Source: a candidate division FCPU426 bacterium
Lineage (GTDB): Bacteria; Oederibacteriota; PGYV01; Palsa-1178
Assembly: GCA_963840035.1 (NCBI GenBank)
Contig: CAWIXE010000001.1
Span: 1,171,065-1,235,064 of the forward strand
DNA length: 64,000 bases
Reading direction: 5' to 3'
Shown here: positions 27,347 to 54,200 of the stretch, in pieces
Layout of the letters: each line of letters begins with the position of its first letter
How positions within the stretch are numbered: the stretch's first letter is position 1
The notes under the pieces: generated by a model
Database searches by the model: none
The model's input: the letters and a program-made list of their open reading frames with translations, nothing else
Told to the model about the DNA's origin: nothing
Position numbers and translations under genes: made by a program

Positions 27347-27784
27347 CTATTTATCAAACTTCATCTCCGTTATATGGTTCTCTATTCTTTTTAAATCGGA
27401 TTTGCTTACCGAGAGTATCTTTACCCCGGATTTATATGAGGCCGCGCCTTTAACCACGGTTTCCACGTTCCTTACCTCTGCAAGCAGCTTGACCGGCTTG
27501 GCGATGCGGGGCAGGAATAAATCTATCACAACCAGCTGTTTTAAGGCAAGCGGTTTGTCGGTAATTATCGACATGCCGCCTTTGCTTATGTCGTCTGTCA
27601 TGGCGTTAAGGTAGGAATTTCTGGACCTTGTGGCCGTCAGTTTTTCTATGGTGGTATCCTTATAGTCGTCAGTGGCTGTGGCCTGGTCTGCCGAGCCTTC
27701 AATCGGATAAAAAGATATTTTCAGGACATCCTGGACGCGTTCAAACTGGCGCTGTTTTTCCAGCCAACCTTTTTCCATGGTCAT
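27347..27784 (-). CDS. Stand-alone PilZ-domain protein
   Basis: RQFER (RxxxR) and DISKGG (DxSxxG). Confidence 0.85.
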   Translation of the reverse strand: MTMEKGWLEKQRQFERVQDVLKISFYPIEGSADQATATDDYKDTTIEKLTATRSRNSYLNAMTDDISKGGMSIITDKPLALKQLVVIDLFLPRIAKPVKLLAEVRNVETVVKGAASYKSGVKILSVSKSDLKRIENHITEMKFDK

Positions 27785-28565: not shown

Positions 28566-28648
28566 TTGACAAAAATACCTCTTTGAAGTATAATTATAAA
28601 TGGAAAAGTCATGTGTAATAGAATAGAACATATCATAAGGGACAGTAA
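28566..28648 (+). promoter_or_regulatory. Consensus sigma70 promoter plus downstream boxes for the A-B-C operon
   Basis: TTGACA (28566)-17 bp-TATAAT (28589). The boxes are shared with 44937-44976. Confidence 0.75.
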
Positions 28649-28713
28649 GGTAAAATAATAAGGTAAGAAAAAGTATAGAGATATTTTTTCAGAGCATTGA
28701 TTGAGGTGGTATT

Positions 28714-34700: not shown

Positions 34701-37700
34701 GACCATAACGGAAACAATGACGGAAACAATAACACAGACCATTACACATACGTCAACCCAGACCGCGACTGAGACTGCGACACAGACGGTTACCCCGACA
34801 TATACCGCCACAGAGACATCGACAGACACCCCTCAGGACACGGCGACCGCAACGCAGACAATAACTGAAACAGCCACGCAGACCGTAACGCAGACAATAA
34901 CGCAGAGTGTAACTGAAACCGCGACACAGACAATAACTGAAACAGCAACCCAGACGATAACGCAGACCGTGACTGAAACAGCCACGCAGACAATAACTGA
35001 AACAGCCACGCGGACCGTAACGCAGACAATAACGCAGACTGTAACTGAAACCGCGACACAGACAATAACTGAAACAGCAACCCAGACGATAACGCAGACC
35101 GTGACTGAAACAGCCACGCAGACAATAACTGAAACAGCCACGCAGACCGTAACGCAGACAATAACGCAGACTGCAACTGAAACCGCGACACAGACAATAA
35201 CACAGTCTGTAACTGAAACCGCGACACAGACAATAACTGAAACAGCAACCCAGACGATAACGCAGACCGTGACTGAAACAGCCACGCAGACAATAACTGA
35301 AACAGCCACGCAGACCGTAACGCAGACAATAACGCAGACAATTACACTGACTGTCACCCCCACATATACGGTAACTGAGACTTCTACGGACACGCCGGTT
35401 GACACGGCCACAGTTACACAGACCATTACAGAAACAATTACACAGACTGTAACCCGGACAGCAACGGAAACGATTACGGGAACGGTAACGCAGACATCCA
35501 CTCAGACTGTAACAGAAACATATACTGTCACGCAGACAATAACGGAAACTTCCACACAAACGTTTACTGAAACAATAACGCAGACATCAACCCAGACTAT
35601 TACGCAAACCGCCACGCAGACTATAACCGAGACGGCAACTCAGAGCGTGACGCAGACTGTTACCCAGACCGCCACGCAGACTTCAACCCAGACTGTTACA
35701 GAGACCGCAACCCCGACATACACGATAACGGGGACCGTTACGCAGACGGTAACAGGGACATCCACACAGACAATAACTGAAACTATTACAGAAACGGCGA
35801 CTCAAACCGTATCACAGACCATTACGCAGACCGCGACTCAGACAATTACGCAGACCCACACATTTACCCCGACCCCGACGGATACCCCGACCTCAACTGC
35901 TACACCTACATTTACAAATTCGCCTAATGATACTGCGACACATACTCCGACATTTACGATGACACCGACATATACTGTTACCCAGACAAATACACCGACA
36001 TTTACAATAACAAGCACCGGGACACCCACATCAACGGACACTAAAACCATTACGCCGACATTTACTGCAACGGTTTCGTTTACGCCGACATATACGGTGA
36101 CCCCGACATTTACTAAGGCGGTAGGCGAGGGTTTATGTGTGGTCTCGCCGCTTGATTTCATAGCAGGGAATCCGGGATATGTTTTGAAAATCACATATAC
36201 TGCGGGAGTTCATTCATGGGACGGCGCGCCGGGCAACGGCACGCTTAAAGTGACAATACCGTCAGGATGGACCGTACCGGACGCCTTTACACCTGGCGCA
36301 GACGGGTACTTCTCAGTTACAACGACTGGGGGCGCTGAGCTAGTATCAGTGGGAACTGACGGCGGTATGGCAATGATAATAGAAGTAACCGGACTTACTG
36401 CAAATACAGGCGAAATAATAATTACTTATGGCGCGGGTTCAGGCGTAGTACCGGCGGGCCCTGCGGGCAGCCAGGAATTTAAGACGGAGATGGCCTTCAG
36501 CGGCGGGGTTGTTGAAGGGATACAGGTACAGCCTGCCGTTAATGTAGTCGCGCCGACACCTACGATTACGCCGACTAACACCCCTGTAATCGCAGAAGGC
36601 AGCATAACAATAGCGCCGGGAACAGTGGCGGCGGGAATAAACGGATATGAAATGACATTTGCCTATACTGCAGGGGCAACACCCTGGGGATCAGGGGCGT
36701 ATTATGGAACGCTTGACATAACAATACCCGCGGGATGGACGGTACCAAGCACTAACGGAGCGGATCCCGGATATTACTCGGTCACTTATACTTCAGGAAC
36801 GCTCTTTACAAAAGGGTTTGTCGCGGGCGACCCGATGACCTTAAGAATCAGGCTTCGCGGACTGCTGCCGGGAGGGACCATTACGGTCAAATATGGCCTT
36901 GCCATAAATGGAGGAACAACACCGCAGTCTTCAGCGGGGAATGTAACATTCATTACAAAATGCGACGTGACAAGCCAGGATGGCAACACGACATATCCGC
37001 TTATGGTTCAGCCAACAGTGCTTGTTGTAATACCCACAGCTACTGTTACTCCGACCATAACGGAAACATCTACGTCAACGCCGACCTTCACAGTTACTGT
37101 TACGTTTACTCAGACACAGACAGTCACACAGACAGTGACGGAAACTATTACCGAGACATATACTATCTCTGAAACCCCGACAATATCGCCCACAGGGACC
37201 ATAACTGAAACTCCGTCAGGAACGCCGACAATAACGGAAACTGAAACTTCCACCGACACACCTACGGATACAGCCACTCAGACCATAACTGAAACAGCCA
37301 CACAGACGGTTACGCAGACAATGACCCAAACAGCCACGGAAACCGCGACGGAGTCCGTGACAGAAACAGTTACGCAGACTGTAACGGAAACTGACACACA
37401 GACTGTGACACAGACAGCGACACAGACAGCGACAGAAACCGTAACGCAGACAATAACGCAGACCGGTACGCAGACAATAACACAAACTGTGACACAAACG
37501 GACACGCAGACTGTGACAGAAACAGCGACGGAAACAATGACACAGACAATTACTCAGACAGACACGGAGACAATAACACAGACAATCACACAGACTGACA
37601 CTCAGACAGTAACCCAGACAGTGACGCAGACGGCCACGCAGACAGCGACGGAAACAGTCACGGAAACGATAACCCAAACAATAACGCAGACAGTTACTGA

Positions 37701-40077
37701 GACAGTAACGCAGACTGTTACTCAGACAGACACGCAGACAGTAACCGAAACCATAACCCAAACAGTAACGCAGACTGTTACGGAGACTGTAACGCAGACA
37801 GTAACACAGACAGACACACAGACCACGACTGAGACTATCACGCAGACTATTACGCAGACGGATACACAAACTGTTACACAGACTATTACAAAGACAGCCA
37901 CACAGACCATAACTGAAACTGCTACAGAAACAATAACTCAGACCGTAACACAGACAGCTACTGAAACCATTACTCAGACGGCAACGCAGACTATAACCCA
38001 AACAGTGACGCAGACCATAACGCAGACAGATACTCCGACGTCCACGGCTACTCCTACGGACACCCCGATAATAGGAGAAGGAACCGCGATTATTATACCT
38101 GTGCAGGCATCTTCAGGCACTTCAGGAAATACCCTGCAGATAATATATACTTCCGGGCTGACAACCTGGTCTGCCGGCGGAGGGACATTACGGATTACTG
38201 TCCCGGCCGGATGGACAGCGCCGAGCACGGATTCCGCTAATGACGGATTCTTCTCCGCCACTTGTTCAGGCGGATCCATAGACGGGACAAGCGCAGCAGG
38301 TATGAATATGTTTATAACAGTCTCAAGCCTGCCGGGCAGCTATATCGGAACTATAACGGTAACATACGGGGATAAGTCAGGCGGCGGAAATGGAGCTGTT
38401 TCCCAGATGGGAACAGGTACGGCAGTATTTGAAGTTTGGATGGCCACAAGCGGGACAGATGTACATGCAATCCTTTCGCATCCGACAATCAACATGGTAA
38501 CGCCGACCTCCACGTCCACATCAACGCCGACATCCACTCCTACATTTACTGTAACGCTTACGTCAACTCCTATTATAGGCCAGGGTACTGCCATGGTGAG
38601 CCCGGGAACTGTTACAGCGGCAAGCGTTGGAAATAAAATGGCCATAGAATTTACCAACGGCCCAAATCCGTGGGCTTCATTCCCGGACTATGGCGCGCTT
38701 AAAATACACATCCCGGCCGGGTGGTCAGCGCCGAATGCCGTGGACAGCAACGCAGACGGATACTTTACAGTATCAGCTGACAGCGGTTCTAATATGATGG
38801 CAATAGCGGCAGGACAGGTAATAATAATTACATCAGAAGGACTTGCCGCGGGCGGAAAGATTACAATAACCTATGGAGACTCGGTACAGGGCGCAGTGGC
38901 GCAGGGGTCGCCAGCCACTGTAGATTTCATAGTTGAATCTTCGCTTAATGGGGACACCACTTATCCTATCATGTTGATGCCGCAGGTTGTAGTGCTTGCC
39001 CCGACGGAAACAGTAACATCAACAAACACACCTACAGCTACAGAGACATTTACAATAACGCCGACGGACACGATAACCGAGACTGTAACGGAAACATCGA
39101 CGCAGACCATTACTATGACGGTTACACCTACGATTACGATGACATTTACTCCTGCTGCTTCTCCTGTAAAGCCGGCGGGTTTATCAGTCGCTCAAAACGG
39201 CCTGAACACTACCCTGCAGTGGGGCACTGACCCGAATGTGAATTCATATAATATTTATGCAGCGACCGGGGCGCTTGGCAAATTTAACACCTTCCCCGGA
39301 GGATGGTCCATTATCGCAACTGTGCTGCCTACACCGGTCACTTCAAGCTATACATACGCTGACGCGGTTACGAATACATTCTGCTTCTATTACGTGACAG
39401 GAACGAACGCGGCCGGCGAAGGCGCGGCTTCGGTAATGGGGGCAAAGACCACCTTCAGATTCAAGTATAACGCCGGTGGCAAAAACGCGTATATTATTTC
39501 CCTGCCATACAGCTCGAAATTCGCGAAAGCAAGCAACATAATAACGGATATAGAAGGAAGCCTGCTGACAGCGCCGGTGAAAGTGGACCTCATATCAGTT
39601 TGGTATCCGGGCATGCAGTCCTTTATAGCGTACAGGTACATAGCCCCTTCATGGAGGGTGCCAAACTGGAACGTGGACGCAGGCACGCTTTCATCAAATG
39701 CCATTTACTTAAATGTAATCTCTGATTTTGACTGGACAGTCGCTGGTGTTGATACCGAAACGCAATTATTCTTTAAATACAACTCGGCAGGCCAGAGCGT
39801 GAACCAGAGGATGCTGCCGTATACTTCAAAATATAAGAAAGCTTCGGATATTGTAAAGGAAATTGAAGGCGGGACAGGGATAGGGACAAATACAAAAATA
39901 AGCGTTGTCGCAAAGTGGTATCCTGAGTACCAGTACTTCGTAGGGTACCTGTATAATGGAAACAGGTGGGTGACGGATTTTGACATAAAACCGGGTGACG
40001 CGGTAAGCCTGTACATGAGCGGCAATACAGCCGAGTTTAACTGGCTGCCCGGGCTTGTTCCTACGCCTGTACCATAA
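28714..40077 (+). CDS. Protein A: giant secreted Thr-rich protein with 9 repeated beta-sandwich-like domains and C-terminal module X
   Basis: Signal peptide [18 protein letters not shown]; nine ~140-aa GEGSA..SP...GNT..I.YT...IPxGWSxP...GY[YF]TV domains separated by TxTx tracts. Start uncertain (GTG 28714, or TTG 28774 after AGGAG). Confidence 0.9.
31807..32094 (+). repeat. Coding tandem repeat, 24-nt unit (TETVTQTA), about 12 copies
   Basis: Near-perfect ACGGAGACTGTAACGCAGACAGCC array. Confidence 0.9.
32941..33360 (+). repeat. Coding tandem repeat, 48-nt unit ([16 protein letters not shown]), about 9 copies
   Basis: Near-perfect ACGGAAACAGCCACTCAGACAGCAACTGAAACRGCAACACAGACCATC array. Confidence 0.9.
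34861..35340 (+). repeat. Coding tandem repeat, 132-nt unit
   Basis: Units start at 34861, 34993 and 35125; later copies are rearranged. Confidence 0.75.
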
Positions 40078-40099
40078 AATCTTTAGAGGAGAAATAAAA

Positions 40100-41356
40100 G
40101 TGAAAAAAGCCATCATTCTATTGACTGTGTTGTTTGCCGCTGCCGGACATACTTACGGCAGCGCCGGCGATTTCCTATACGGCGAGGTATACGCGGCTGA
40201 CGGTTCGTCAGGCACGGCATCCACAGAAAACAGCTACGGAGGATTGATAGCATACAGGATAGGCGTATCCGGGGAAATCGCCACTGAGCACGCTGACTGG
40301 GCTTCGCACCCTGAATTAACCCCGGGGCAGATTTACCTGGCAAATTCGGATTCCGGAACTGATTACCCGGCGTCTTTTAACACAAGTGTGAACGCGGACT
40401 GGACCGTTCCGGTATCGGCAGGGCAGGAAGTTGTCGCAATTATTCAGACATACAGCGGACAGTTCGGCTGGGGCGGGGATTCATATTGCGCGGCGGCAAA
40501 AGGGGTAATTGCGGCAAGCACGCCCATTACCATTTTTCATGATATGCAGCTCGGAAAAATACCGCGGCCCCAGGCGGAAACCATTTCATCCACTTCGGTG
40601 GCGTTGACCTGGACAGGTATGTCAAATGACCCGGATAATCTGATAATGGGCTACACAGTTTACAGATCTTTAAGTCCTGACGGGACATATGAACCCTCAA
40701 CAACAATAGCCCCCCATACAGCGGGAGGAACTGTAACATTTTCTGATAACGCTGTTACAATGGGCGCGAGTTATTATTATAAAATAGCGGTCAATTATGA
40801 ATGGGATGGTGTTGGAAATACAGTGCCGGCTTATGTGACCCTGGCAAAATCAGAGCACAGCGATGAAGTGGCGATACCGGGAGCGACAAAAACTTTCACC
40901 CCGACAAATACTGTCTCACATACTGCTACCGCTACGCAGACAATTACACAGACAGCGACGACAACAGCTTCGCCAACATTTACGGCAACCGTGACAATAA
41001 CTTCCACGGTTACGGTGTCTCCGACAAAAACTGCCACTTTGCAGCCCACGGCCACGGCGACTAAGACGGCGGTTCCTGCGCATTCCGTCATAATAAAGGA
41101 AAAAGTAATTGTGTTCAATAACCCGGTGAAAAACAGCGTTATTAAAGTCGGGTTTATGGCGGAAAATGACGGCGAAGCCATATTTGAATTTTTTGGCATT
41201 AGCGGGGAGCTTATCCGGAAGGAAAGAGTCAACGCTGTAAAAGGCGCGAATATTTTTGAAAGAAAATTCGAAAAAATGGCCCCGGGCGTATATATAGTAA
41301 AGATCCGTGTGGACGGCAGGTTCCTGCCGGACAGAAAAATCGGTTTTATAAAATAA
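40100..41356 (+). CDS. Protein B: secreted protein with N-terminal module Y (including an FN3-like part), Thr linker and T9SS type-A CTD-like tail
   Basis: GAGGAG RBS before GTG 40100; signal peptide; C-terminal VFNNPVK...ISGELIR...MAPGVYIVKI...KIGFIK. Confidence 0.85.
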   Translation: MKKAIILLTVLFAAAGHTYGSAGDFLYGEVYAADGSSGTASTENSYGGLIAYRIGVSGEIATEHADWASHPELTPGQIYLANSDSGTDYPASFNTSVNADWTVPVSAGQEVVAIIQTYSGQFGWGGDSYCAAAKGVIAASTPITIFHDMQLGKIPRPQAETISSTSVALTWTGMSNDPDNLIMGYTVYRSLSPDGTYEPSTTIAPHTAGGTVTFSDNAVTMGASYYYKIAVNYEWDGVGNTVPAYVTLAKSEHSDEVAIPGATKTFTPTNTVSHTATATQTITQTATTTASPTFTATVTITSTVTVSPTKTATLQPTATATKTAVPAHSVIIKEKVIVFNNPVKNSVIKVGFMAENDGEAIFEFFGISGELIRKERVNAVKGANIFERKFEKMAPGVYIVKIRVDGRFLPDRKIGFIK

Positions 41357-41381: not shown

Positions 41382-44300
41382 TTGAAGGGAAAATTCTTCG
41401 GGCACATGAGGCCGGCTGCTTTTGTCGCTGCGTTTATTATTGCCTTTGCCTTTGTCCTGCAGGCCGACATTATAAACCTTAACGCGACAGGCGAAATGTC
41501 GGGAAAAATACAGGGCTGGTATGATTCTGTGAGCATCGCGGCATATGATTCGGACAGCGCTTATACGTCGGTCAGCGGTACAAGCCTATATACTGAATTT
41601 GACAACTCAACATACCTCGGGCCCGTGAACACGGTCACGCTTCATATATTTCACAGCGCCACAGGCAGCACTGCGGGAGATACTCTTGAATATAATCTGA
41701 GCAATGACGGCGGCACAAACTGGTTTTCCGCGGTGGATACTTTTGATGCTTTTTCAGAGGCGCTTATTCTTGACGCTCCGGTTATGACTGATGCTGAAAC
41801 AGAATACACGCTTGAGATTTCGCCGATATACAGCGCGTGGGACTGGAATAAAGTAAATAATCTGGGTATGGTAATCAGGGCTATGGGAACAACTTTTACC
41901 CAGGCGAAGATAAACTATGTTTACCTTGCTGTGGATTATACTGCCGAGTCGCCGACGATAACACCGACATTTACAGATACGCCGACGGAAACCCCCACCT
42001 GGACAAGTTCACCGGATTATTCCGCGACTGATACGCCGTCTATTACAGATACTCCTACGGGCACTCCTACCCCGACCGGATCTGCAACTGTCACAGTTAC
42101 GGGAACAGATACTCCAAGCATTACAGCGACAGATTCCGGAACCCCGACAGATACGTTCACGGCAACATACACTGCTACGGACACTTCGACACCTTCAGCA
42201 ACATGTACCGGAACCGGGACAGACACCAATTCAGCAACACCTACTGGTACAACCACAATATCACCAACACCAACGGATACAGGCACTGTCACGGCGACTC
42301 CGACGGATTCGCCGGTTTCCTCGGCAACAGACACGCCGTCTGTTACGGGGACATTTACTGCGACAGGAACATCAACCGCGACATTCACCGGTACTGTTAC
42401 GCCCACTTCCACGGATACCGGAACGCAAACCATGACAGATACGAAAACATTTACGCCCACGGCAACTCAGACTGTTACCCGGACAAACACAAACTCTCCG
42501 GTAAATACAAATACTTTTACACAGACTTCTACACCGACAAATACCGCGACGCCATCCAGGACTGTAAGCGATACGCCGACTGCTACAGGGACAGGAACAA
42601 TAACTCAGACAAATACAATAACGCCAACATTTACCGACAGCCCGGTTGCAACAAATACGCCTTTCGGCGAAGGCAGCGCGATTATCAATCCGGGTTTTGC
42701 CGCGGCAGGGACATCAGGAAATACCATGACCATAGTATATACGGCCGGGGCAACCACGTGGGTTAATGGGGTTTTAAAGGTCATAATACCATCAGGCTGG
42801 TCAGCGCCGAGCGCAAATACTGTTGATCCCGGATACTTCAGGGTTACTGTTTCAGGAGGCTCATCTTCAGGATCTTCAAAAAGCGGACAGACAATAACTG
42901 TTAATATTAATTCACTTACCGCATTTTCAGGGACAATAACTGTTGTCTATGGAAGCAAAGCCTCAGGCGGGCCGGGCGCAACATGCCAGCCATTGCCGGG
43001 AACACCCGTATTTACAGTTGAAAGCAATCCAACAGGGGCGGTCACATATCCGATTACAATATTGCCGCAGGTTACAGTTACTAATCCAACGGCAACAGCT
43101 ACATATACATATTCAAATACATTCACCAGCACTATCACTCAGACGCACACCGTATCACCGACATATACAGCGTCGCCGACCCCGATAACAGGGGAAGGCA
43201 GCGCGGCGATAATACCGGCAGGAGCAGTAGCCTGGTCGACAGGGAATACTTTTTCAATTGAATACACCGCGGGCCCATCAAACTGGGCGGCGTCTCCGGG
43301 ATTTGGTTCAATGAAAATATCAATCCCCGCAGGCTGGCCGGCGCCGGTGACAACGTCATCAGCACAGGGTTATTATACGGTAGTATTAACCGGAGGAACT
43401 CTTGCCGGGAAAAGTTCCTCGGGGCAGGATATCAGGGTGTCGGCAAGCGATGTCTTAGCGGGCCAGAAAATAATTGTGACATACGGGAACAGGGCTGGCG
43501 GCGGACCGGGAATTACAGCGCCTGCAGGCGGCACGCATATTTTCCGCGTGGAAGCAGCCACAAGCGGATTAACGACGCACCCGATAGCGGTTTTTCCTGT
43601 GGTGAACCTTTCAACCCCTACATCGACTCCGACCGCTTCTGTTACGATGACATATACCAGCACTCCAAATTCAACTCCGGTACCACCCCCGGCTTTTGCA
43701 TCACAGCAAAGCGGCGGGAATACAACTTTAAGCTGGACAAGCGGTGCCAATATTGATTATTACAAAATATACCTTGCGACAGGCCCTTCAGGAAGGCTTT
43801 ATTCTTTCCCGACAGGATGGACGCTTGTTGCGACAGTGGTCCCGACCCCGGGGACAAGTTCATACAGTGACGCTTCAAATCCTCAAACATACTGTTTTTA
43901 CCGTGTTTCCGCTGTAAATGGAGCGGGAGAAAGCCAGCCGGCAGCGATGGCCTCAAGAATAAAATATGTTTTTAATTATAATGCCGGCAGCCAGAATTCC
44001 TACAGGATAGGGCTTCCTTTTAATTCGCCATACGGCACTGCGTCCGCTATAGTCACAAGTATTGAGGGAAATCCTGTAACCGCTTCAAGAATAAATAATA
44101 TCGCTTTCTGGGATCCTTCACAGCAGTCGTACATCGCGCGCAGTTATATAAACGGATCGTGGAGGGCGCCTGACTGGACAGTGGATGCGGGTACTCTTTC
44201 GTCGAACGCTATATTTGTTAATGTGGTTTCGGCTTTTACCTGGAATGTGACAGGCACGGATAAATCAGCGCCGCTTTTCTTCAAATATTATCCCGGCAAA

Positions 44301-44585
44301 CAAAACATGCAGGAGAGGATGATTCCGTACGCTTCGGCTTATCAGAAGGCGTCGGATATAGTAAGAGATATAGAAGGAAATACCGCGACCGCGAACAGGA
44401 TAAACCTGATAGCTGTCTTTAATCCGGCGATGCAATCATACACAGCATACGTCCATAATGGAACCATATGGCCGGCTCCTTCGAATTTTAATGTAGTGCC
44501 CGGGGATATCATACAAATACGCTTAAGCGGGACTACTTCTGAGTTTACATGGACACCGAAAATGGCTGGAACTCCTATACCGTAA
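41382..44585 (+). CDS. Protein C: secreted Thr-rich paralog of A with two GEGSA domains and C-terminal module X
   Basis: AGGAG before TTG; signal peptide; distinct N-terminal beta domain; the C-terminal ~300 aa align with those of protein A (for example [11 protein letters not shown] is identical). Confidence 0.9.
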   Translation: MKGKFFGHMRPAAFVAAFIIAFAFVLQADIINLNATGEMSGKIQGWYDSVSIAAYDSDSAYTSVSGTSLYTEFDNSTYLGPVNTVTLHIFHSATGSTAGDTLEYNLSNDGGTNWFSAVDTFDAFSEALILDAPVMTDAETEYTLEISPIYSAWDWNKVNNLGMVIRAMGTTFTQAKINYVYLAVDYTAESPTITPTFTDTPTETPTWTSSPDYSATDTPSITDTPTGTPTPTGSATVTVTGTDTPSITATDSGTPTDTFTATYTATDTSTPSATCTGTGTDTNSATPTGTTTISPTPTDTGTVTATPTDSPVSSATDTPSVTGTFTATGTSTATFTGTVTPTSTDTGTQTMTDTKTFTPTATQTVTRTNTNSPVNTNTFTQTSTPTNTATPSRTVSDTPTATGTGTITQTNTITPTFTDSPVATNTPFGEGSAIINPGFAAAGTSGNTMTIVYTAGATTWVNGVLKVIIPSGWSAPSANTVDPGYFRVTVSGGSSSGSSKSGQTITVNINSLTAFSGTITVVYGSKASGGPGATCQPLPGTPVFTVESNPTGAVTYPITILPQVTVTNPTATATYTYSNTFTSTITQTHTVSPTYTASPTPITGEGSAAIIPAGAVAWSTGNTFSIEYTAGPSNWAASPGFGSMKISIPAGWPAPVTTSSAQGYYTVVLTGGTLAGKSSSGQDIRVSASDVLAGQKIIVTYGNRAGGGPGITAPAGGTHIFRVEAATSGLTTHPIAVFPVVNLSTPTSTPTASVTMTYTSTPNSTPVPPPAFASQQSGGNTTLSWTSGANIDYYKIYLATGPSGRLYSFPTGWTLVATVVPTPGTSSYSDASNPQTYCFYRVSAVNGAGESQPAAMASRIKYVFNYNAGSQNSYRIGLPFNSPYGTASAIVTSIEGNPVTASRINNIAFWDPSQQSYIARSYINGSWRAPDWTVDAGTLSSNAIFVNVVSAFTWNVTGTDKSAPLFFKYYPGKQNMQERMIPYASAYQKASDIVRDIEGNTATANRINLIAVFNPAMQSYTAYVHNGTIWPAPSNFNVVPGDIIQIRLSGTTSEFTWTPKMAGTPIP

Positions 44586-44877: not shown

Positions 44878-44976
44878 TTGACAAAAAAACTACAATATTG
44901 TATAATTTACCCGTGGGTCGAGGTGTAAATATTTATTAAATGGAAACAGAGTGTAACAGACTATAACGGATAGTAA
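44878..44976 (+). promoter_or_regulatory. Consensus sigma70 promoter plus 10-bp-spaced direct repeats for the HTH-D unit
   Basis: TTGACA (44878)-17 bp-TATAAT (44901); AAACAGA/TAACAGA/TAACGGA at 44944, 44954 and 44964. Confidence 0.75.
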
Positions 44977-45003
44977 ATCATTAACAAGGAGAAAGAATCC
45001 GGT

Positions 45004-45216
45004 ATGAAAGAAGAACAACTGGAGATTATGACAGTTAAAGATGTGGCGGTTTATCTAAAAATGAAACCTGTCACTATTTATAAGCTTGCGAAAGAGGGAC
45101 GAATTCCCGCTTTCAGGGTTGCTTCATTCTGGCGTTTTAAAAAAGACCTCATAGATAAGTGGTTATCTGACGAATCAAGGAAAAATCTCGATACAAGCAA
45201 GCAGGCGAAATCGTAA
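45004..45216 (+). CDS. Small excisionase/BldC-like (HTH_17) DNA-binding protein
   Basis: MTVKDVAVYLKMKPVTIYKLAKEGRIPAFRVASFWRFKKDLIDKWL; AGGAG RBS. Confidence 0.9.
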   Translation: MKEEQLEIMTVKDVAVYLKMKPVTIYKLAKEGRIPAFRVASFWRFKKDLIDKWLSDESRKNLDTSKQAKS

Positions 45217-45268
45217 GTCGTACTATATATAAAGGAAGACAGCTTTAATTCCCCTAAACGGAGGATTA

Positions 45269-48200
45269 ATGCAAAGAAGTACGCGGGAAAAAAAGTTTAA
45301 GAGGATCTTGCTTCTATTGACAGCCGTTATTGGTCTGTCTTTTGGCATATCAGCGTCTGCCCAGGCGTTTTACTATCTCTTCGGGGATGTTTACACTTCA
45401 ACAGGCGTATTCGGTACTGCAGCGACTGAAAACAGCTACGCAAGCCTAAAAGCGTACAGGATAGGAATTTCAGGCCAGGTTGGGGTTGAGCACTCAATTA
45501 ATCCTTTCCCGGAGCAGATTTACGCCGCATACACTGATTCAGGCACTGATTACCCGGCCAACTTTAACTCCGAAGTGGGTTCTGACTGGTCATTAACACC
45601 TCCGCAGATTGGCGATAATATAGTAACCCTCGTACAGACATATAACGGGCAGTTTGGCTGGGCTGGAAATTCATACGTAGGCGCTTCTTCGCGCGTTATA
45701 ACAGCGGGGGATTATTCAGGGTATTCAAGCACCATGCCGAACATCAGGATGGAACAGATTCCAAACCCGGCCGCGCAGACAGTAAATTATTACGACGCCA
45801 CGCTTACATGGACAGGACTTTCACAGGACCCCCAGAATCTTGTAACCGGATACACGGTCTACAGGGCCACGCAGGCGTCATTCGGACCCAATACAGTCAC
45901 ATTTACCGCAGGCCAGGTAAAAGGAGGACTCGTTACATTTGTTGATTCCTCCGTAAGTACCGGAACTTCATACTATTATAAGCTTGCGGTTAATTATGAA
46001 TGGAACGGCGGCACGCTCGCGGCTTATACCACCCAGGCAAATTCCGCAGTCACATCACTTACAACAAAAACAGCGGTATTAAACCAGCTTATTTTATCCC
46101 TTGATTTCAGCCCCAGCAGCCCTTTGACGGCAAGCACCGGACAGACCATAACAATAATCGGCCAGGCACTTAACATAAGCGGCGAGCAGATTAATAATGT
46201 AAACCCGGTACTCGGGTTGTCCGGCGGCGCCCAGACTACGCTGGTTCAGCTGTCAAACCCCGGCACAGTAAATATCCCGGGCGGAATTTCTTATCTTACA
46301 TGGACTTATTCGGCAAACGCGTCAGGCATTGTAACAGTAACGGCCGCAGCGAGTGGCGTTGGCGCCGGTTCATCAAACTTATACATCGGAAATGTTACGG
46401 CGTCAAAACAGATAACGGTAAAAACAAAGGCGTCCCTTTCAGCGCAGTCATCGGCCCTGCCTGCTTCGGCCTCTGTCGGCCAGCAGATAACTGTAATACT
46501 CACGGCGACAAACAGCGGACAGTCTGACTGCAACGCGGGCGCGCCTTCAATGACGGTGCTTGGAAATACCTCGGCAATATCAATTGCCACTACGCCTGGT
46601 TCAGCGATTATTTCAGGCGGCAGCGGCACGCATACTTACACCTGGATTTATAACACCCTTTCAACCGGAACAGTTTCATTCAGCGCTTCAGTTTCAGGGA
46701 CGGACCAGTACTCGGCTGTTGTTGTAGCAGCGATCGCGCCGGTCACAGGAAATGTCCTGATACAGACGCCGGCGTCAATTGCCTCTGATATTTCAGCGCC
46801 TGCCAAGGTAAGCTTAAACCAGGTATTTACGGTGCAGATGACACTTACAAATACAGGCGGCGCATCTGTTGTGAATTTCTACCCGAACATCATAACAAAT
46901 ACAGCAACGGTGCTTAACCTTACAAAGCCCTCAACTACAACACTGCCGGGCAATTCAGTCACCACTCTCCAGTGGACATACTCGGCGCTTGCTTCCGGCA
47001 CCAATATTTTCAGCGGCCGCGCCACGGGAACCGACGCGAATTCAGGAAGCGCGCTTTCGACAAACTGGAAGAATGTTTCCACGCTTATTCAGACAAGGCC
47101 GAACCTGCAGGCTTCGCTCACATGCGCGCCGCTGCAGGTTTCCATAAACCAGCTTATAACTGTGGTGATGACAGTATCAAACCTGGGGCAGGCGACCGCG
47201 GACCTGCTTACTCCGGACTCCATCGCGTTCAGCGGGCCTGTAAGCTACCAGGCCGGGCCGATTCCTTCGCAGTATATTTACATAACCGGCAACACAATGC
47301 AGGATTTTACATGGCGCTTTACCGCGACAGGCCCTGGTATTGCTTCATTCAGCTGCAGGGCTTTCGGCATAGATGAAAATGAAAGATCCGGTGTGACATC
47401 GACCGCTTCAACATCGCCGTCTGTTAATATAGAAGTAGGGGCAAACCTGATTTCGTCCCTGACCGCCTGGCCGCTGAAGGCTTCCACCGGACAGAACATA
47501 ACAGTCGCCCTCACCGTAACAAATACAGGCGCTTCAGGAGCCAATAACGTTATACCTGAGCTTTTCCCGACAGGAACAGGTTCTATTGTTCCTGTGTCCA
47601 CCCCAAACCCGACATCATACAGCCTTGGCGGAAGCACAAGCGGAACATTCCAGTGGGTGTATACGGTGAACGGACCCGGTTCGCTTAATTTTCAGGCAAG
47701 AGGAGCCGGAGTGGACGCAAATGCCGGCTGGAATGTATACTCGTCGTATTCACAACTATCCATAACAGCGCAGGATAAATCAGCCCTTGTTTCAATAATT
47801 GCCGTGTCGCCGGAAAATGTCGGGTTGTTCGGATTCATAACGGTTGTAATGAACGTGGTCAATAACGGACAATCAACGGCAAATAATGTCACCCCCGAGT
47901 TCATGGCCGTACCGGGCTTTGCCACACAGCTTACCGCACCGGTTCCTCCAGCGGTTAACATCACGGGAGGAAATTCATATAACTTCACATGGACATACAG
48001 CGCGACGGCATACGGCGCCATTGCATTCTCAGGCAGGGCAGCCGGCACGGACGACAACAGCCTGCTTCCGGTTTATTCATTATATACTTTTGCGGTATCA
48101 AACATACAGACACCGGCTACGCTCATCTCCGATATGCACCTGCTGCCCACCTCAATTTCCACGGGGCAGATGTGCACTGTCAGGCTTGTTGTTACAAACA

Positions 48201-51200
48201 CCGGCATGGCGACCGCGACCGGGGTAACACCCAATTCCATTATTAAAATTGGCGCGCCGGGCGCCGCTGTTCAGACAGGGCCGCTGCCCGCATCGGCGGA
48301 TATTGCCGGCGGAATGTCAGCAACTTTTGAATGGACTTATCTTGTATCGCTTCCCACAGGCACCCTTGCTTTCAGGAATAATGCTTCAGGCACAGACACG
48401 CTTACCGGAGGAACGGTAACCTCCACGCTTACTTCTTCAGAAACAAGGAGTGTTATTAAGGGAGCAAGCCTTGCGGCAAGTTATTACGCGGCGCCTTCAT
48501 CGGTTAATATGGGCGGAATTATTACGGTAAGGATGGTTGTCACAAACACCGGGGACGCGACAGCCCAGAATGTACAGATAACAACCGTAAACTTAATCGG
48601 CAGCGCCGGAATTTCACCGAATACATCGCCGCTGCCGTCCTTAAGGTCGATAGCAGGAGGAGCTTCTGAAACCTTTACCTGGACTTATGACGCGCTCGGG
48701 ACAGGAAATGTAATATTCTCCGCAAGGGTCACGGGCCAGGACGCGAATTCACTTGCAGCCATTGCCTCAGCTTATCAGCTTTCGAACCAGGTAAACGTCG
48801 AGACAAGGGCGATTCTTTCAGCCGGAGCTTATGCGCAGCCGGCCATCGCGAATGTCGGGCAGGCAATCACATTATTCTTAAGGGTCACGAACACGGGGCT
48901 TGGCACCGCTGACATCACTACACCGAAAAAACCGGGGCTTTCAAATGCAAGCCTTGCAACTTATTTTTCAGGCCCGTCGCCTGCGGACGCTTCTATTGTA
49001 TCGTCAACAACACAGGAATATACCTGGGTTTACTCCGCAGCCAATACAGGTGTCCTGACTTTCACGGTTTCAGCCAGAGGCACTGACCATAACTCAGGGG
49101 ATATACTTGATACAAATTCAGGGACTACCAATGCCGTTACAATACAGAACGCATCAAACTTAAACTGCACGATTGCGTCATCCGCGCCATCTGTTAATTC
49201 GGGCCAGGACTTGACCATAACAATGACCATACATAATTCAGGACAGTCTGGATGCGCCGGAGTTACTCCAAATATTATACCTGTCGGCACAGCAGGCTTC
49301 AGCGCGCCGTCTATTAATCCTGCAAGCGCCCCGATTGGCGGAGGCGCCACGCAGATATTTACTTTTGTATATAACGCCACAACCCCCGGGACCATGGTGT
49401 TCTCGGGCACGGCTTCAGGCACTGACGCAAATGACGGAACAGTAAAAATATCAAACTTTGGAATTACACCACAGGTGCTTGTCCAGACAGGCGCGCAGCT
49501 TGATATAGACGTGACAGCGCTTCCGGCGCTCGTTGCTACCGGCCAGAGGATCACGGTTACAATGTCTGTCACAAATCTTGGACAGGCTTCCGCAAACGGC
49601 GTTATCCCGAGCCCGCTGCTTGGCGCTATAAATAAAACAGGCACAGCGGACGCGACTTTAATAGGAACTGTAAACCCGGCAAGTTATACAATACCGGGCG
49701 GGCAGACAAGGATATTCACGTGGACTTATTCAGCGGACGGAACCGGAACACTGCAGTTCTCGGGCAGCGCGAGGGGGACGGACGCCAACACTGGCGCTGT
49801 TGTGGCATCACCACAAAGAAATTCGGCGCAGGTTGAGATTAAGCAGCCTTCACCTTCACTTGCGGCGGAGATTTATCTTCCTTTAACGGTGGTATCCGTA
49901 CAGCAGCAGTTTACGGTTATCATGACAGTGACCAATACGGGGTTGATTGACGGAACACTCGCGGACCTTTATACTTGCGTATCCACGACCTCCGGCGCGG
50001 CAGTCACGCAGCTTTCAAATCCGGGTATCGGCCAGATAATAGCCGCGCAGACAGGCGTCGCGCATTTTACATGGACTTATTCGGCAGCCTCATCGGGCGT
50101 GCTTAATTTCTCAGGAGCCGCAAAATCAAATACGGGCCTGGGTTCTACCGCGGCCGCGGTTTCACAGAATATAACCATACAGACACAGGCTGCGCTTTCA
50201 GCTTCATTCCAGGCTCTGCCAGCAAATACGGATTCAGGCCAGCCGCTGACGGTGGTACTCGTTGCAAATAACAGCGGCCAGGCGGCGGCAAATGCTGTCA
50301 CGGTCAACCAGGACGTGGTCGGCACATACCTGACAAAACTCGGCACAGCAAATGTAACATTAATAAGCGGGCCATTGCCTGTATCACAGGGTATAGCCGG
50401 CGGAACAAACGGATATTTTACATTCACATACAGCCCGTCAGTCACAGGGTCTGTTGCCCAGCCGCTTTCGTTCCAGGGGTTTGTTTTCGGTTATGACGCG
50501 AATACCGGCGTTACCAAGACATCGGCTGATGCTGTATCGACAATTACCAATATACAGAATCCGGCAAGCCTGTCAGCCCAGTTTAACGGTCTGCCTGCTT
50601 CGGTAAATATAGGGGATACATTCGCGGTATCAATGACGGTTACCAATAACGGGAACGCGTCTGCACTAAATGCGGCGCCTGTACCCGCGCCCGGAATGAC
50701 AATAATAGGCACGGGTTCTGTGGTCAGGCTTACCGGAAACACGCCCGCGTCACAGACTCTCGCGGGCGGCGCGTCAGTCACATTTAACTGGACTTATTCA
50801 GCCGTGGGCACAGGGCTTGTAAGTTTCTCCGTACATGCGTCGGGCACTGACAGCAACACATCAGAAACCAGGGTTTCCGCCCCGCTTTTAAGCCAGTTTG
50901 TAGTGCTTGTCAGGGAAGCTGATATTGCGTCTTCAGTGATAGCATATCCGGCAACCGTGTCAGAAGGCGAATTCATAACGGTGTCAATGACAGTGACAAA
51001 TTCAGGCGAAGCAGCCGCGTTAAATGTATCGCCGGTTGCGATGCTGCTTACACCATCCGGCGGCGCAACGGTTTCACTAATATCCTCGCCGGCACCTCTT
51101 ACAGTGACTTCCATCAACGGAGCTTCAGCGCACACCTATATATGGATTTACAGGGCATTGACAGCTGGCAACATAACATTTGGAAATAAGGTTGTCGGAG

Positions 51201-54200
51201 CGGATTCAAATGACGGAAGAATACTTACAACAACACTCGGCACATCGCCTTCCATTACCATTATGCAGGCAGCAGTGCTTGCCTCGCAGATGACGGTTGC
51301 GCCATCATCGGCAAGTGTAGGCCAGGCAATAACCATGATCATGAGTGTAACAAATACAGGAACTGGCGCCGCTAACAACGTTTATCCGTCGGTTATAACG
51401 ACGTTCGGTTCCGCCGGTTTAAGTTTTACTTCTTCGCCGACAGCTTCAGTGCCATTAGCCGCCGGGGCAAGCGCGTACTTTACATGGAGATACAGCGCCG
51501 CTTCCATCGGCACTGTTTCTTTCAGCGGAAATGTATCCGCGGTTGATGTAAACAGCAGCAAAACAATTTCTTCGCCCATGGGAACATCCGCCTCAATTGC
51601 AATACAGACCGCGTCGCAGTTAACAGCCGCGTTCCTGCCGCTGCCTGCGAATGTTTCAACCGGACAGACTGTATATGTAGTGCTCCTTGTTTCTAACACT
51701 GGCGGAGCGACAGCAATAAGCGCGCTGCCTGAAACACCGGGCCAGTCAGGCACAGGGGCATTTACACTCGCGGCGTCACCCGGCACGCAGCCCATAGCAG
51801 GCGGAACGCTCGCGATGTATACATGGACTTATTCAGCGTCTGCCGCAGGAAACGTTGTATTTACTTCAAAGGTAAACGCTACGGACTTGAATAGCAGCCT
51901 CGGAATATCTTCAAATATTGCCTCATCATCACAGGCTAACGTTGTAAATGCGGCGGCATTCAGCGCCGGCATTATCGCGCCGCCCTCCATATCAAATAAT
52001 TCTACCGTCTACACGGTATACATGAGCGTTACAAATAACGGGCAGGCCTCGGCCAATAACGTATCCGCGCACATAAGCTATACATTGACAGACTCGCCGG
52101 CAGTTACATTCTATAAGCTCGGGCCGGAAACCACTAATATCAGCGGAAACTCCTCGGCGTCGTTCAGCTGGAGTTTCTCCGCAACAGGCACAGGCACTGT
52201 GCACTTCTCGGGATTTGCCACAGGCACTGATGTCAACTCAGGGCTCACAGTCACGCTGACCGCGCAGAACGCGGATTCCATAGTGCAGACTCCGGCGCCG
52301 GTATTAATAAGCCCGGCAATTTCAGCATATCCTTCACAGGTTTCCATCGGCCAGGTGGTCACGGTAATAATGAGGGTGACAAATAACGGACTTGCGAGCG
52401 CCGCAAACACAGCGCCCACAATCAATAACTACATAGGCAGCATGGTAAAGCAGTTAGGACCGCTTCCTGTTAACGCCACCATAAACGCCAACGGAGGTTT
52501 CGCCGTATTTACCTGGACTTATACCCCGTTTGCCGCGGGTAATGTTTCATTTACAGGTACTGCCACCAACGGCGTCGTCACAAGCGCTGAAGGACAGTCA
52601 AACACAATATCAGTCCAGACCAAACCGGTAATTACAATAACAGACACGCTTCCAAACTTACAGGTAAGCGTCGGCCAGAATATTACGGTTATTATGCACG
52701 TGGCTAATTCGGGAGGCGCGGCCATTGACGGTATGATGCCGAATTTAACCGCTGTCGGAGATTCAAGCAGTCTTGTTAAGATACTTGACGCGGTTACGGG
52801 CAATTCAATAGCCGCGGGCATGTCGCAGTCATATACATGGGCTTATAATTCCACGGGCGGCGGTACGGTTTCGTTCTACATGGAAGCCTGGGGCAATGAC
52901 GCCAATTCGGGCGAGGTGATTTTAGCCGCGCCTGTTACGACAGATGATGTAATCATGGAAACCCCGGCTACGCTTGCGAATTTCCTCACTGTGCCGCAGA
53001 CAGTAACCATCGGCCAGTGGTTCACGGTTTACATGATGGTATCAAATACCGGAAATTCCACCGCGAATAATGTAGTACCCACAAACCTTCAGCTTTCCGG
53101 AGTCGGCACAAGCATTAAGAAAACAGGCCCGACACCTGCAAGCCAGACAATAACTGGAAAACAGGCATTTACTTTTGCGTGGACATATTCAGCCGCCGGC
53201 ACAGGAACGGTAAATATCACAGGTTCGTCAACGGCGGTTGATAATAATTCCGGGTTCGCGGCCGCGTCAAACGTAGCAGCAGCCGGGTTGAATGTGAACA
53301 AGAAAGTAGAGCTTTCAGCGTCGCTTACTGCGTCGCCGTCACTGGCAAAAACAGGCTCTCAGATAACGGTTGTCATGCACGTTACAAATAACTTAAATTG
53401 CGCAAGGGCCATAAGCTTAAGCGTAACCCCCCAGGACCTCGGAAAGATTACGACAGGCGGGGCTTTCGCGGCTATAGCTGCCGCGCCGTCGCCGGTCTCA
53501 AGGATAGTCGACGGAAATTCTTCAACTGACTTTACTTGGGTATATGACGTGGGAAATGTTGTAGGCACCATTTCATTTACAGGAAACGCGATAGCCACAG
53601 ATTATAATACGGGCTGGGCAGCGTCCAGCACTGTCGCCACCAGCAACGTGATAACGGTGCAGGCAAGCGCCGTATTAAAATCAGACATTATAATACCTGT
53701 TACAAATGTGTCGGTGGGCCAGTTGTTCACCGTCATAATGAATGTGACAAATACCGGAGGGGCAGTAAGCAACTCTACAAACGCGTTGCCGGATTTCATA
53801 TTCTTCGGCAGCGGAAACGCCGCGAAGTTTAACGGCCCGCAGCCTGTTAATCAGTTAATGAACACAAATGATGTTCAGCAATTTACATTCAGGTATACTG
53901 CCACGGCGGCTGGAACGCTGGGCTTCTCGGGATACGCAACCGGAACTGATACTGTGTTTGGCGCCATACAGTCACCAAAGACCGCCGGCAGCCTGGTTGT
54001 CATAGAAAATTCCTCGGCCCTTACCGCAACCATGACGGCGAAGCCGTCAACAGCAAGCGTCGGCGAGATTATAACGGTAATAATGGTAGTTACCAATACA
54101 GGCGGAGCGACATCGATATCGGCTGCAGGAATTACGCCGACCACCGTGGGCAGCGGTTCTGTCGCGTTATTGTCCTCACCCGCATATTCTGATATACCCG

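What the first reader, a model, noticed from the sequence alone, without database searches (positions are those of the whole stretch)
44878..45216. Shared cis-boxes at both promoters of the locus, and a BldC/Xis-like regulator inside it
Both promoters are perfect TTGACA-17-TATAAT in the context GTTTGACAAAAA. Each is followed by the same three boxes in order: TAAATGGAAA (28597 / 44937), GTGTAAYAGA (28613 / 44951) and ATAASGGAYAGTAA (28635 / 44963). In the second promoter they form 10-bp-spaced direct repeats. BldC/Xis-type small HTH proteins are known to bind direct repeats head-to-tail. Inference: the 70-aa HTH autoregulates and co-regulates A-B-C and D.
Basis: partly seen in the sequence, partly recalled or inferred. 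Interest (0 to 1): 0.7.

Follow-up and report, generated by a model that had tools for sequence, protein, structure and literature searches.

The report
Phased-repeat operator for giant surface proteins
Two promoters that drive giant predicted surface-protein genes in an uncultured Goldbacteria-type bacterium each carry a conserved row of four 10-base repeats, likely the docking site of a 70-residue BldC-type regulator encoded between those genes, so one small protein would tune the whole set.

Summary
The promoters and boxes are at the stated coordinates, but they are not three separate boxes. Boxes 2 and 3 are pieces of one array of four 10-bp direct repeats (unit about TAACAGAGTA). It lies downstream of both promoters: 28616-28655 and 44944-44983. 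It is conserved upstream of the HTH gene in 18 order-level leaders. A matrix trained only on relatives' HTH promoters ranks these two sites first and second in the 3.46-Mb genome. Box 1 at the HTH promoter is probably chance. The 70-aa protein is HTH_17, its top Foldseek match is BldC, and it keeps BldC's head-to-tail interface chemistry. HTH, the D N-terminal domain and the A/C C-terminal module occur in the same 9 of 24 genomes. Best reading (0.7): a BldC-type protein binds both arrays head-to-tail, probably repressing itself with D, and A-B-C. A model supports docking of C's C-terminal module on D's N-terminal domain (0.64 vs 0.00), a reason for co-regulation. Binding and sign are untested. 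The A-promoter array also scores in 3 of 7 genomes where no HTH was found. This is a new member of a known kind.

The parts
28566..28594 (+). PA: sigma70-type promoter (TTGACA-17-TATAAT) upstream of A-B-C
   Evidence: equivalent promoter opposite DUF502 in relatives
28597..28606 (+).
28616..28655 (+). PA repeat array: TAATAGAATA GAACATATCA TAAGGGACAG TAAGGTAAAA (predicted operator)
   Evidence: second-best site in the genome with a 4-unit matrix trained on 17 non-own HTH leaders, 18.5 bits; second of 189 promoters
28734..28743 (+). TTACAAAAAA element shortly before the RBS of A; unexplained, also seen in genomes without the HTH
   Evidence: read by eye; genome count
28774..40077 (+). Gene A, Thr-rich (32%) predicted surface protein of about 3,770 aa; likely start TTG 28774 after AAGGAG (longest ORF opens at GTG 28714); ends in FN3 plus a duplicated module shared with C
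40055..41356 (+). Gene B, 433-aa ORF; N-terminal domain 46% identical to that of D; C-terminal tail weakly like a T9SS sorting domain (TIGR04183 20.4 bits, cut-off 23)
41382..44585 (+). Gene C, 1,067 aa, shorter paralogue of A; C-terminal module 43686-44582 predicted to dock on D's N-terminal domain
44878..44906 (+). PD: sigma70-type promoter of HTH-D; spacer TTGACAAAAAA..TACAA also conserved
44944..44983 (+). PD repeat array: AAACAGAGTG TAACAGACTA TAACGGATAG TAAATCATTA (predicted operator), ending just before the RBS at 44986
   Evidence: best site in the genome, 34.3 bits; conserved in 18 leaders at offsets 34-41 after the -10
45004..45216 (+). 70-aa HTH_17 (PF12728) winged-helix protein of BldC/Xis type; predicted binder of both arrays
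45269..64000 (+). Gene D, open for 6,244 aa to the end of the contig; CARDB/DUF11-type repeats; matching repeats continue at the start of contig C2
27781..28422 (-). DUF502 gene divergent from PA (used as anchor to find PA orthologues)
27347..27784 (-). PilZ-domain gene following DUF502

Best explanation
Both promoters carry the same conserved array of four 10-bp direct repeats just downstream of the -10 box, and the co-encoded 70-aa BldC-type protein likely binds it as a head-to-tail row of subunits, one per DNA turn. Shown: the arrays, their 10-bp period, their conservation, their restriction to these two promoters, the protein's family and predicted fold, and its co-occurrence with A/C and D. 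Inferred: (1) the HTH is the binder; (2) binding is cooperative and head-to-tail as in BldC, with the wing in the AT-rich TATAA junctions and the recognition helix on the purine-rich half; (3) the effect is mainly repression, because the arrays lie downstream of the expected start site (about +15 to +55 at PA, +31 to +70 at PD, and over the start site in a distant clade); (4) the result is a negative-feedback loop that sets the level of HTH-D through the strong site and ties A-B-C to it through the weaker site; (5) this matters because A/C and B/D products are predicted to dock on each other in one surface assembly.
For: Conservation. In 18 HTH leaders A2 and A7 of units 1-3 are invariant, as are A7 and T9 of unit 4. 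Identity at lag 10 is 0.60 against 0.20-0.45 at the other lags from 5 to 15. Held-out test: a matrix from 8 GTDB orthologues scored 9 new metagenomic orthologue leaders at 14.4-34.3 bits, with 0 of 500 shuffles reaching each. Specificity. The 4-unit matrix without own sequence gives PD 34.3, PA 18.5 and next 15.7 bits over both strands of the genome. Among 189 promoters PD is 29.1 and PA 18.9; the other 187 have mean -6.7, sd 5.3, max 8.4. A promoter-plus-array pattern over 24 genomes gave 15 distinct promoters: 8 PD, 5 PA and 2 others, with 0 control hits. Co-occurrence. HTH orthologue, D N-terminal domain (E<1e-50) and A/C C-terminal module are in the same 9 of 24 order genomes. All 7 scorable PA orthologues from HTH-bearing genomes beat shuffles (p<=0.018); 4 of 7 from genomes without HTH score below 0. 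In G010 the A gene and HTH-D lie on different contigs among unrelated neighbours and both keep the array. A sister copy of D there without the HTH has none (-10.3 bits). Protein. PF12728 53 bits. Foldseek ranks 1-5 are BldC 6AMA, rmsd 1.5 A over 50 columns, E 8e-3. VIA Z 7.9 to BldC 6AMK. BldC interface residues L11, E16, F21, R22, V23, W31, I40, T42 (PMC5859096 section 9) map to I8, D13 (E in most orthologues), L18, K19, M20, L28, F37, V39 (alignment), all at least 90% conserved in 65 homologues. BldC's optimal site has a 10-bp period. Other candidate binders fit worse. Docking model C-tail with D-head: score 0.64, best control 0.00; this mark was reached by 116 of 157 solved and 2 of 215 mismatched pairs; runs agree in at least 85% of contacts; partner pLDDT at least 90.
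Against: No binding or expression data. The PA array also scores in 3 of 7 genomes where no HTH orthologue was found (G001 9.3, G019 13.7, G023 9.5 bits; 91, 84 and 96% complete). Four of the seven HTH-positive PA arrays are weak (7.6-10.8 bits) at scattered offsets. With 3-unit matrices PA ranks third, behind one site with no promoter upstream. A distant clade with the same recognition helix has only a weak 2-unit version at offset 7: 5 of 6 leaders with a promoter, 2.7-7.5 bits; 0 of 2,000 joint shuffles for 4 representatives. Omnitrophota-type homologues with the same helix score only about -2 to 6 bits. HTH and D are adjacent and the genomes are kin, so co-occurrence is not independent. 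Array registers were set by hand. The sequence match to BldC is itself not significant (E 0.7), and BldC's base-reading R30 and K26 are K27 and V23 here. BldC both represses and activates (PMC6428758), so the sign is inferred from position only. The predicted docking residues are not more conserved than average (0.50 vs 0.63; 0.51 vs 0.55).
Confidence: 0.7

Rival explanations
1. The HTH regulates only its own promoter and D. The PA array is a relic of a duplicated promoter, or is read by the PilZ-linked HTH_17 paralogue (C2:818956-819111), whose recognition helix is almost the same (KVKPVTVYK).
For: PA arrays persist in G001, G019 and G023 where the HTH was not found, and G023 has the paralogue. 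Own PA shares its first transcribed bases with relatives' PD (ATGG(G)AAAAG), and A-B and C-D are duplicated pairs. PA is weaker than PD.
Against: The PA array is strong in G002 (29.5) and kept in G010, where A is unlinked from HTH-D. The paralogue was not found in G011, G013, G014 and G017, which have PD arrays, nor in G001 and G019. It is present in G008, G018, G020 and G022, where the promoter-plus-array pattern found nothing. Its own operon region shows no array. The contigs of G001, G019 and G023 break within the gene after PA, so the HTH may be unassembled.
Confidence: 0.13
2. A different direct-repeat binder, such as an OmpR/PhoB-type or LytTR response regulator, reads both arrays and the HTH is a passenger.
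For: Such regulators bind tandem repeats (PMC5859096 discussion passage). This genome has two OmpR-type domains.
Against: OmpR-type domains are in 21 of 24 genomes, most without arrays, and were not found in G011 and G017, which have arrays. No LytTR was found in this genome. The array is lost from the D copy that lost the HTH.
Confidence: 0.08
3. The array acts on RNA, as a structured leader or a protein-binding site next to the RBS.
For: It lies in the transcribed leader, and at PD it ends 2 bases before the RBS.
Against: RNAalifold finds 0 pairs in 18 leaders. There is no Rfam match at either leader. The strict 10-bp period fits one face of a DNA helix. At PA the array is more than 100 bases from the RBS.
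Confidence: 0.04
4. The protein is an excisionase and the repeats are arm sites for recombination of a mobile cassette.
For: TIGR01764 46 bits. Xis and RdfS folds match. The HTH-D cassette sits in different neighbourhoods in relatives.
Against: The nearest tyrosine recombinase on this contig is about 490 kb away. The repeats keep a fixed distance from a promoter.
Confidence: 0.03
5. The PA-PD likeness is chance in AT-rich promoter DNA.
For: Perfect promoters are common here (37). 31 of 17,766 pairs match as well. Box 1 at PD is at chance level.
Against: A matrix that never saw PA ranks it second in the genome, and orthologous PA arrays are conserved.
Confidence: 0.02

Closest known systems
BldC of Streptomyces (68 aa; PDB 6AMA, 6AMK; PMC5859096, PMC6428758)
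   Same: Stand-alone MerR-like winged HTH of about 70 aa without effector or coiled-coil domain. Same predicted fold (rmsd 1.4-1.5 A over about 50 residues). Interface residues chemically kept. Two to four direct repeats one DNA turn apart.
   Different: Different base-reading residues and repeat (about TAACAGAGTA against AATTXXXXC). An apparent regulon of two promoters rather than a large developmental regulon. Sites lie downstream of the -10. Targets are giant predicted surface proteins. About 20% sequence identity. Binding not shown.
RdfS, Pukovnik Xis, GIsul2 Xis, P2 Cox (HTH_17/Xis-type directionality factors; PMC11963761 passages; PDB 8DGL, 4J2N, 8C3T, 4LHF)
   Same: Same fold (Z 6.7-7.2). 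RdfS forms head-to-tail oligomers and binds its own promoter.
   Different: No integrase nearby. A clear conserved repeat consensus exists here, whereas none was found for RdfS.
Mycobacteriophage D29 Gp36 (PMC12266134, abstract only)
   Same: Small MerR-like repressor binding direct repeats.
   Different: Phage protein with GC-rich repeats; not compared by sequence here.
MAD1 of the MADS defence system (NF047737)
   Same: Best NCBIfam profile score, 64.9 bits.
   Different: Below the cut-off of 80; neighbours are surface-protein genes.
Cohesin-dockerin pairs of cellulosomes (recalled; analogy for the predicted A/C-tail with B/D-head docking)
   Same: A duplicated terminal module on one secreted protein predicted to bind a module on another.
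   Different: No sequence match of the A/C module in the PDB. Only its FN3 part matched by fold. No evidence of homology.

Membership tests
BldC family | Small stand-alone MerR-like winged HTH lacking dimerisation coiled coil and effector domain | tested here: met
   70 aa; HTH_17 over residues 9-55; model H11-18, H22-31, E37-39, E42-46, H47-68; homologues 52-92 aa within the 38-123 aa range searched
BldC family | Fold superimposes on BldC | tested here: met
   Foldseek ranks 1-5 6AMA, rmsd 1.5 A, 50 columns, E 8e-3; VIA Z 7.9, rmsd 1.4, 51 aligned, tied with 6HN7 (8.9) and Xis proteins
BldC family | Head-to-tail interface residues (F21, V23, W31 against L11, I40, T42, L43, G44; R22-E16 salt bridge) | tested here: inconclusive
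   Eight map conservatively and are at least 90% conserved. L43/G44 lie outside the printed alignment, the alignment has E 0.7, and no oligomer was modelled.
BldC family | Target sites are direct repeats one helical turn apart | tested here: met
   Four units with 10-bp period at both promoters; that they are this protein's targets is inferred
BldC family | BldC's own specificity (R30, K26; AATTXXXXC) | tested here: not met
   K27 and V23 at those positions; unit consensus differs. It is not a BldC orthologue.
BldC family | Cooperative head-to-tail binding on DNA shown biochemically | not testable with these tools
   needs EMSA, stoichiometry or a structure
Excisionase / recombination directionality factor | HTH_17/Xis fold | tested here: met
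   TIGR01764 46 bits over cut-off 28.8
Excisionase / recombination directionality factor | Linked cognate integrase | tested here: not met
   4 PF00589 matches in the genome, none within about 490 kb on this contig; serine recombinases and att sites not searched
MADS MAD1 | NF047737 score at or above cut-off | tested here: not met
   64.9 bits against 80
MADS MAD1 | First gene of a mad operon | not tested
   no PADLOC scan run; the next gene is the CARDB-repeat protein D
Structured cis-regulatory RNA | Conserved, covarying secondary structure | tested here: not met
   0 consensus pairs in 18 leaders; no Rfam match at the leaders

The most novel reading that the evidence does not exclude
A dedicated two-promoter regulon builds one giant heteromeric surface structure. 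Thr-rich stalk proteins A and C clip through an undescribed C-terminal module onto the N-terminal domain of B and of a D protein of possibly more than 14,000 residues, which are exported by a T9SS-like route. A BldC-type mini-filament on phased repeats acts as a feedback governor that keeps the partners in proportion. This would be a cohesin-dockerin-like assembly logic with its own autoregulator in an uncultured phylum.
Probability: 0.3. Interest if true: 0.7.

Novelty: new member of a known kind. Interest (0 to 1): 0.5.

Why it matters
It gives a defined regulator-operator pair in an uncultured lineage, testable with a 70-aa protein and two 40-bp oligonucleotides. It extends BldC-type head-to-tail regulation from Streptomyces development to the control of a locus of at least 35 kb of predicted surface-protein genes. 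How cells budget such giant genes is little studied. The predicted docking of the A/C tail on the B/D head points to a protein-joining module with no PDB sequence match. The regulatory logic itself is known, and unchecked notes of this scan report the same pairing in other phyla, so the surprise is moderate. Not found in print with searches (open-access library only; supplements not read).

Tried and rejected
Direct MAFFT alignment of the two promoters did not line up the boxes. My first matrix had two rows out of register; corrected. A 17-mer pattern with 1 mismatch was swamped by chance hits, with controls of similar number. Its exact matches were 4 PD, 1 PA and 1 site with no promoter upstream. 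The two non-PA/PD hits are an internal promoter upstream of efp. Scored in 23 of 24 genomes it does not follow the HTH (best 12.0 bits in an HTH-negative genome), so it was rejected as a regulon member. RNA structure and Rfam: nothing. phmmer of the single HTH against the PDB: nothing. A pattern for the distant-clade site found nothing in 5 genomes, including G037 itself, so it was too strict and says nothing. No RNA holder was listed, so no TSS or expression data. Atlas searches of the two docking modules gave only hypothetical or FN3 clusters. Fold searches of the A/C module were filled by its FN3 domain, so the duplicated part is untested. RptR (PMC12255303, passages) binds palindromes as a dimer and is not a close model. 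The Goldbacteria paper PMC7031533 (passages) had no passage on this locus for the terms searched. PA orthologues left out: 6 of the 20 DUF502 loci (G008, G009, G021 truncated upstream; G016 at a contig end; G004 with hisG as neighbour; the own second DUF502 copy; the last two scored 0.8 and 11.4 bits). G006 and G014 had no DUF502 match. In one search, one of 20 close loci (L153) was too short to show a promoter and four repeated sequences already held. No homo-oligomer model of the HTH was made.

Full report
Observation. The perfect promoter is not unusual in this genome (37 copies). Box 1 occurs 22 times, box 2 seven times and box 3 only at these two promoters. The two leaders are reciprocal best matches among 189 sigma70-like promoters; 31 of 17,766 pairs score as high and 0.4% of shuffles do. 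So the likeness is modestly above chance on its own. The box spacings differ between the promoters, which suggested that the boxes were mis-parsed.

Context. PA (28566) precedes A (about 3,770 aa, 32% Thr), B (433 aa) and C (1,067 aa). PD (44878) precedes the HTH gene and D, which is open for 6,244 aa to the end of the contig. A and C share repeats and a C-terminal module about 45% identical; B and D share an N-terminal domain 46% identical. D carries CARDB/DUF11-type repeats. Near-identical repeats begin contig C2 and run about 23.7 kb to a PorV-family gene. If the contigs join there, D exceeds 14,000 aa, with two frame breaks in the assembly; the join is inferred. Relatives are labelled Ca. 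Goldbacteria / Goldiibacteriota.

The real element. Orthologues of the HTH (68-96% identity) were found in 8 other genomes of the order and one more distant genome among 41 searched. Upstream of the eight order-level ones lies TTGACAAA...TAYAMT followed by 10-bp direct repeats. Adding metagenomic loci gave 18 leaders. Unit 1 starts 34-41 bp after the -10, with registers set by hand. A2 and A7 of units 1-3 are invariant, unit 4 keeps A7 and T9, and identity at lag 10 is 0.60 against 0.20-0.45 at other lags. The unit consensuses are cAacAgAgTa, tAAcAgAGTA, TAAgGgAcTA and aAAAATAtTA. Nine new leaders not used in training scored 14.4-34.3 bits, with 0 of 500 shuffles reaching each. In the window the units start at 44944/54/64/74 and at 28616/26/36/46. 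Box 1 at PD sits 31 bp after the -10 and is absent as an exact word from 17 of 17 relatives. A similar word, ATGGGAAAA, follows the -10 in 8 of 17 relatives' PD, which is the position of box 1 at own PA. There is no conserved RNA structure and no Rfam match at the leaders.

Is PA a true second site? A four-unit matrix trained only on 17 non-own PD leaders gives PD 34.3 bits, PA 18.5 and the next site 15.7 over both strands of the genome. Three-unit matrices put PA third, behind one promoter-less site. Among 189 promoters PA is second; the other 187 average -6.7 bits, with maximum 8.4. PA orthologues were found through the divergent DUF502 gene (19 of 24 genomes) and 14 were scored. The seven from HTH-bearing genomes scored 18.9, 29.5, 15.1, 10.3, 8.9, 10.8 and 7.6 (all p<=0.018). 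The seven from genomes without a found HTH scored 9.3, 13.7, 9.5, -4.1, -5.8, -1.3 and -1.0. The three positive cases count against a strict link. Their contigs break inside the gene after PA and they lack the A/C module and D head too, so assembly gaps or recent loss are both possible. A hand-made promoter-plus-array pattern over 24 genomes hit 15 distinct promoters: 8 PD, 5 PA and 2 copies of an internal promoter before efp, with no control hits. Its recall is circular but its specificity is informative, and the efp site failed a follow-up. In G010, A and HTH-D lie on different contigs among unrelated genes and both keep the array. A sister copy of D without the HTH (tree support 100/97) has a promoter without it.

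Which protein binds? The 70-aa protein is PF12728 HTH_17. Its model (pLDDT 85) matches BldC first in Foldseek, although no match reached E 0.001. It matches 6HN7, BldC, GIsul2 Xis, RdfS and Pukovnik Xis at Z 7.0-8.9. I read sections 9 and 10 and selected passages of PMC5859096: BldC is a monomer that binds direct repeats head-to-tail, its optimal site has a 10-bp period, and four subunits bind four repeats. Its interface residues map to I8, D/E13, L18, K19, M20, L28, F37 and V39 (E 0.7), all at least 90% conserved in 65 homologues. Its base-reading R30 and K26 are K27 and V23 here, in line with a different repeat. HTH, D head and A/C module occur in the same 9 of 24 genomes; these are kin and the genes are adjacent, so this is not an independent test. 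The PilZ-linked paralogue was not found in four array-bearing genomes and is present in four where the pattern found nothing. OmpR-type domains are in 21 of 24 genomes and not found in two array-bearing ones. No LytTR was found and no integrase is near. As a control, HTH_17 proteins with a different helix and a longer C-terminal domain carry a different phased repeat (TGACAA) over their own promoters and do not score with this matrix. Against: a distant clade with the same helix has only a weak two-unit site at offset 7, and Omnitrophota-type homologues with that helix barely score.

Mechanism. Shown: arrays, period, conservation, genome-wide specificity, family and predicted fold. Inferred: subunits load one per turn along the array; binding downstream of the -10 blocks promoter escape at PA and early elongation at PD; the loop limits the HTH's own level and couples A-B-C to D. 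BldC can also activate (PMC6428758 passages), so the sign is the weakest step. No effector domain is present, so the input is unknown. A reason for coupling came from gene order. The A/C C-terminal module is repeatedly followed by a B/D N-terminal domain, also in two further copies in G010. A complex model of C's module with D's head scored 0.64 against a best control of 0.00. That mark was reached by 116 of 157 solved and 2 of 215 mismatched pairs; runs agree in at least 85% of contacts and partner pLDDT is at least 90. The interface lies outside the FN3 parts, which are the only parts with PDB matches. The interface columns are not more conserved than average, so this is support and not proof.

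Comparison and novelty. It works like BldC and meets the fold and repeat-architecture features, but it is not a BldC orthologue and binding is untested. It fails the excisionase (no integrase) and MAD1 (below cut-off) tests. Literature searches listed no description of this locus or of a BldC-type regulator of giant surface proteins. The library lacks most subscription journals and I read no supplements. Other papers seen: PMC11963761 (passages), PMC12255303 (passages), PMC7031533 (passages), PMC12266134 (abstract). Unchecked notes from this scan report BldC-like HTHs with phased repeats ahead of giant surface genes in other phyla; these are leads, not evidence.

Verdict. Observation confirmed and re-parsed; interpretation partly supported; best explanation 0.7; new member of a known kind; interest 0.5.

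Noticed in passing
window 28734-28743 and loci L032, L033, L035, L036, L038, L040, L041, L045-L048: A T(T/G/C)ACAAAAAA-like word lies about 15-40 bases before the RBS of the gene after PA in most PA orthologues, including genomes without the HTH (read by eye). A looser pattern is before an RBS at only 9 of 422 genome sites. Possibly an antitermination or translation signal; unexplained.
   Followed up: partly
window 44878-44906: The PD spacer is conserved (TTGACAAAAAAgcTACAA; 17 leaders), with ACAA repeated 11 bp apart; it could be a further binding site over the promoter.
   Followed up: no
window 43686-44582 with 45365-46075 (also 39175-40074 with 40172-40852): The A/C C-terminal duplicated module and the B/D N-terminal domain recur as an adjacent pair and are predicted to bind; neither non-FN3 part has a PDB sequence match.
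   Followed up: partly
window 45269-64000 and G000:C2:1-23686: D probably continues across the contig break to more than 14,000 aa, with near-identical repeats of about 808 aa, two frame breaks in the assembly, a tail recalled as FlgD/T9SS-like (no NCBIfam hit) and a PorV-family gene next.
   Followed up: partly
L017, L019, L027-L030: HTH_17 proteins fused to a C-terminal domain recalled as S24/LexA-like have their own 10-11-bp TGACAA repeats across their promoters, a second example of the same logic in this order.
   Followed up: partly
G000:C2:818956-819523 (L178): A PilZ gene followed by an HTH_17 paralogue ends an operon with a predicted kinase and response regulator; a second PilZ gene is divergent from PA (window 27347-27784). 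A c-di-GMP link to the surface locus is possible and untested.
   Followed up: partly
G000:C1:413515 (-), L201-L224: A sigma70-like promoter inside the peptidase gene about 420-460 bp upstream of efp is present in 23 of 24 genomes of the order.
   Followed up: partly
window 45217-45268: The word TAAGGAAGA(C/T) between the HTH and D genes recurs in L002, L003 and L004 and resembles unit 3; significance not tested.
   Followed up: no
window 28714-28776: The likely start of A is TTG 28774 after AAGGAG, not the ORF-finder GTG 28714.
   Followed up: partly
L123, L124 (G010): Extra units of A/C-type module, B/D-type domain and PorV-like gene occur away from the HTH, one with an open frame of 6,265 aa.
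   Followed up: no
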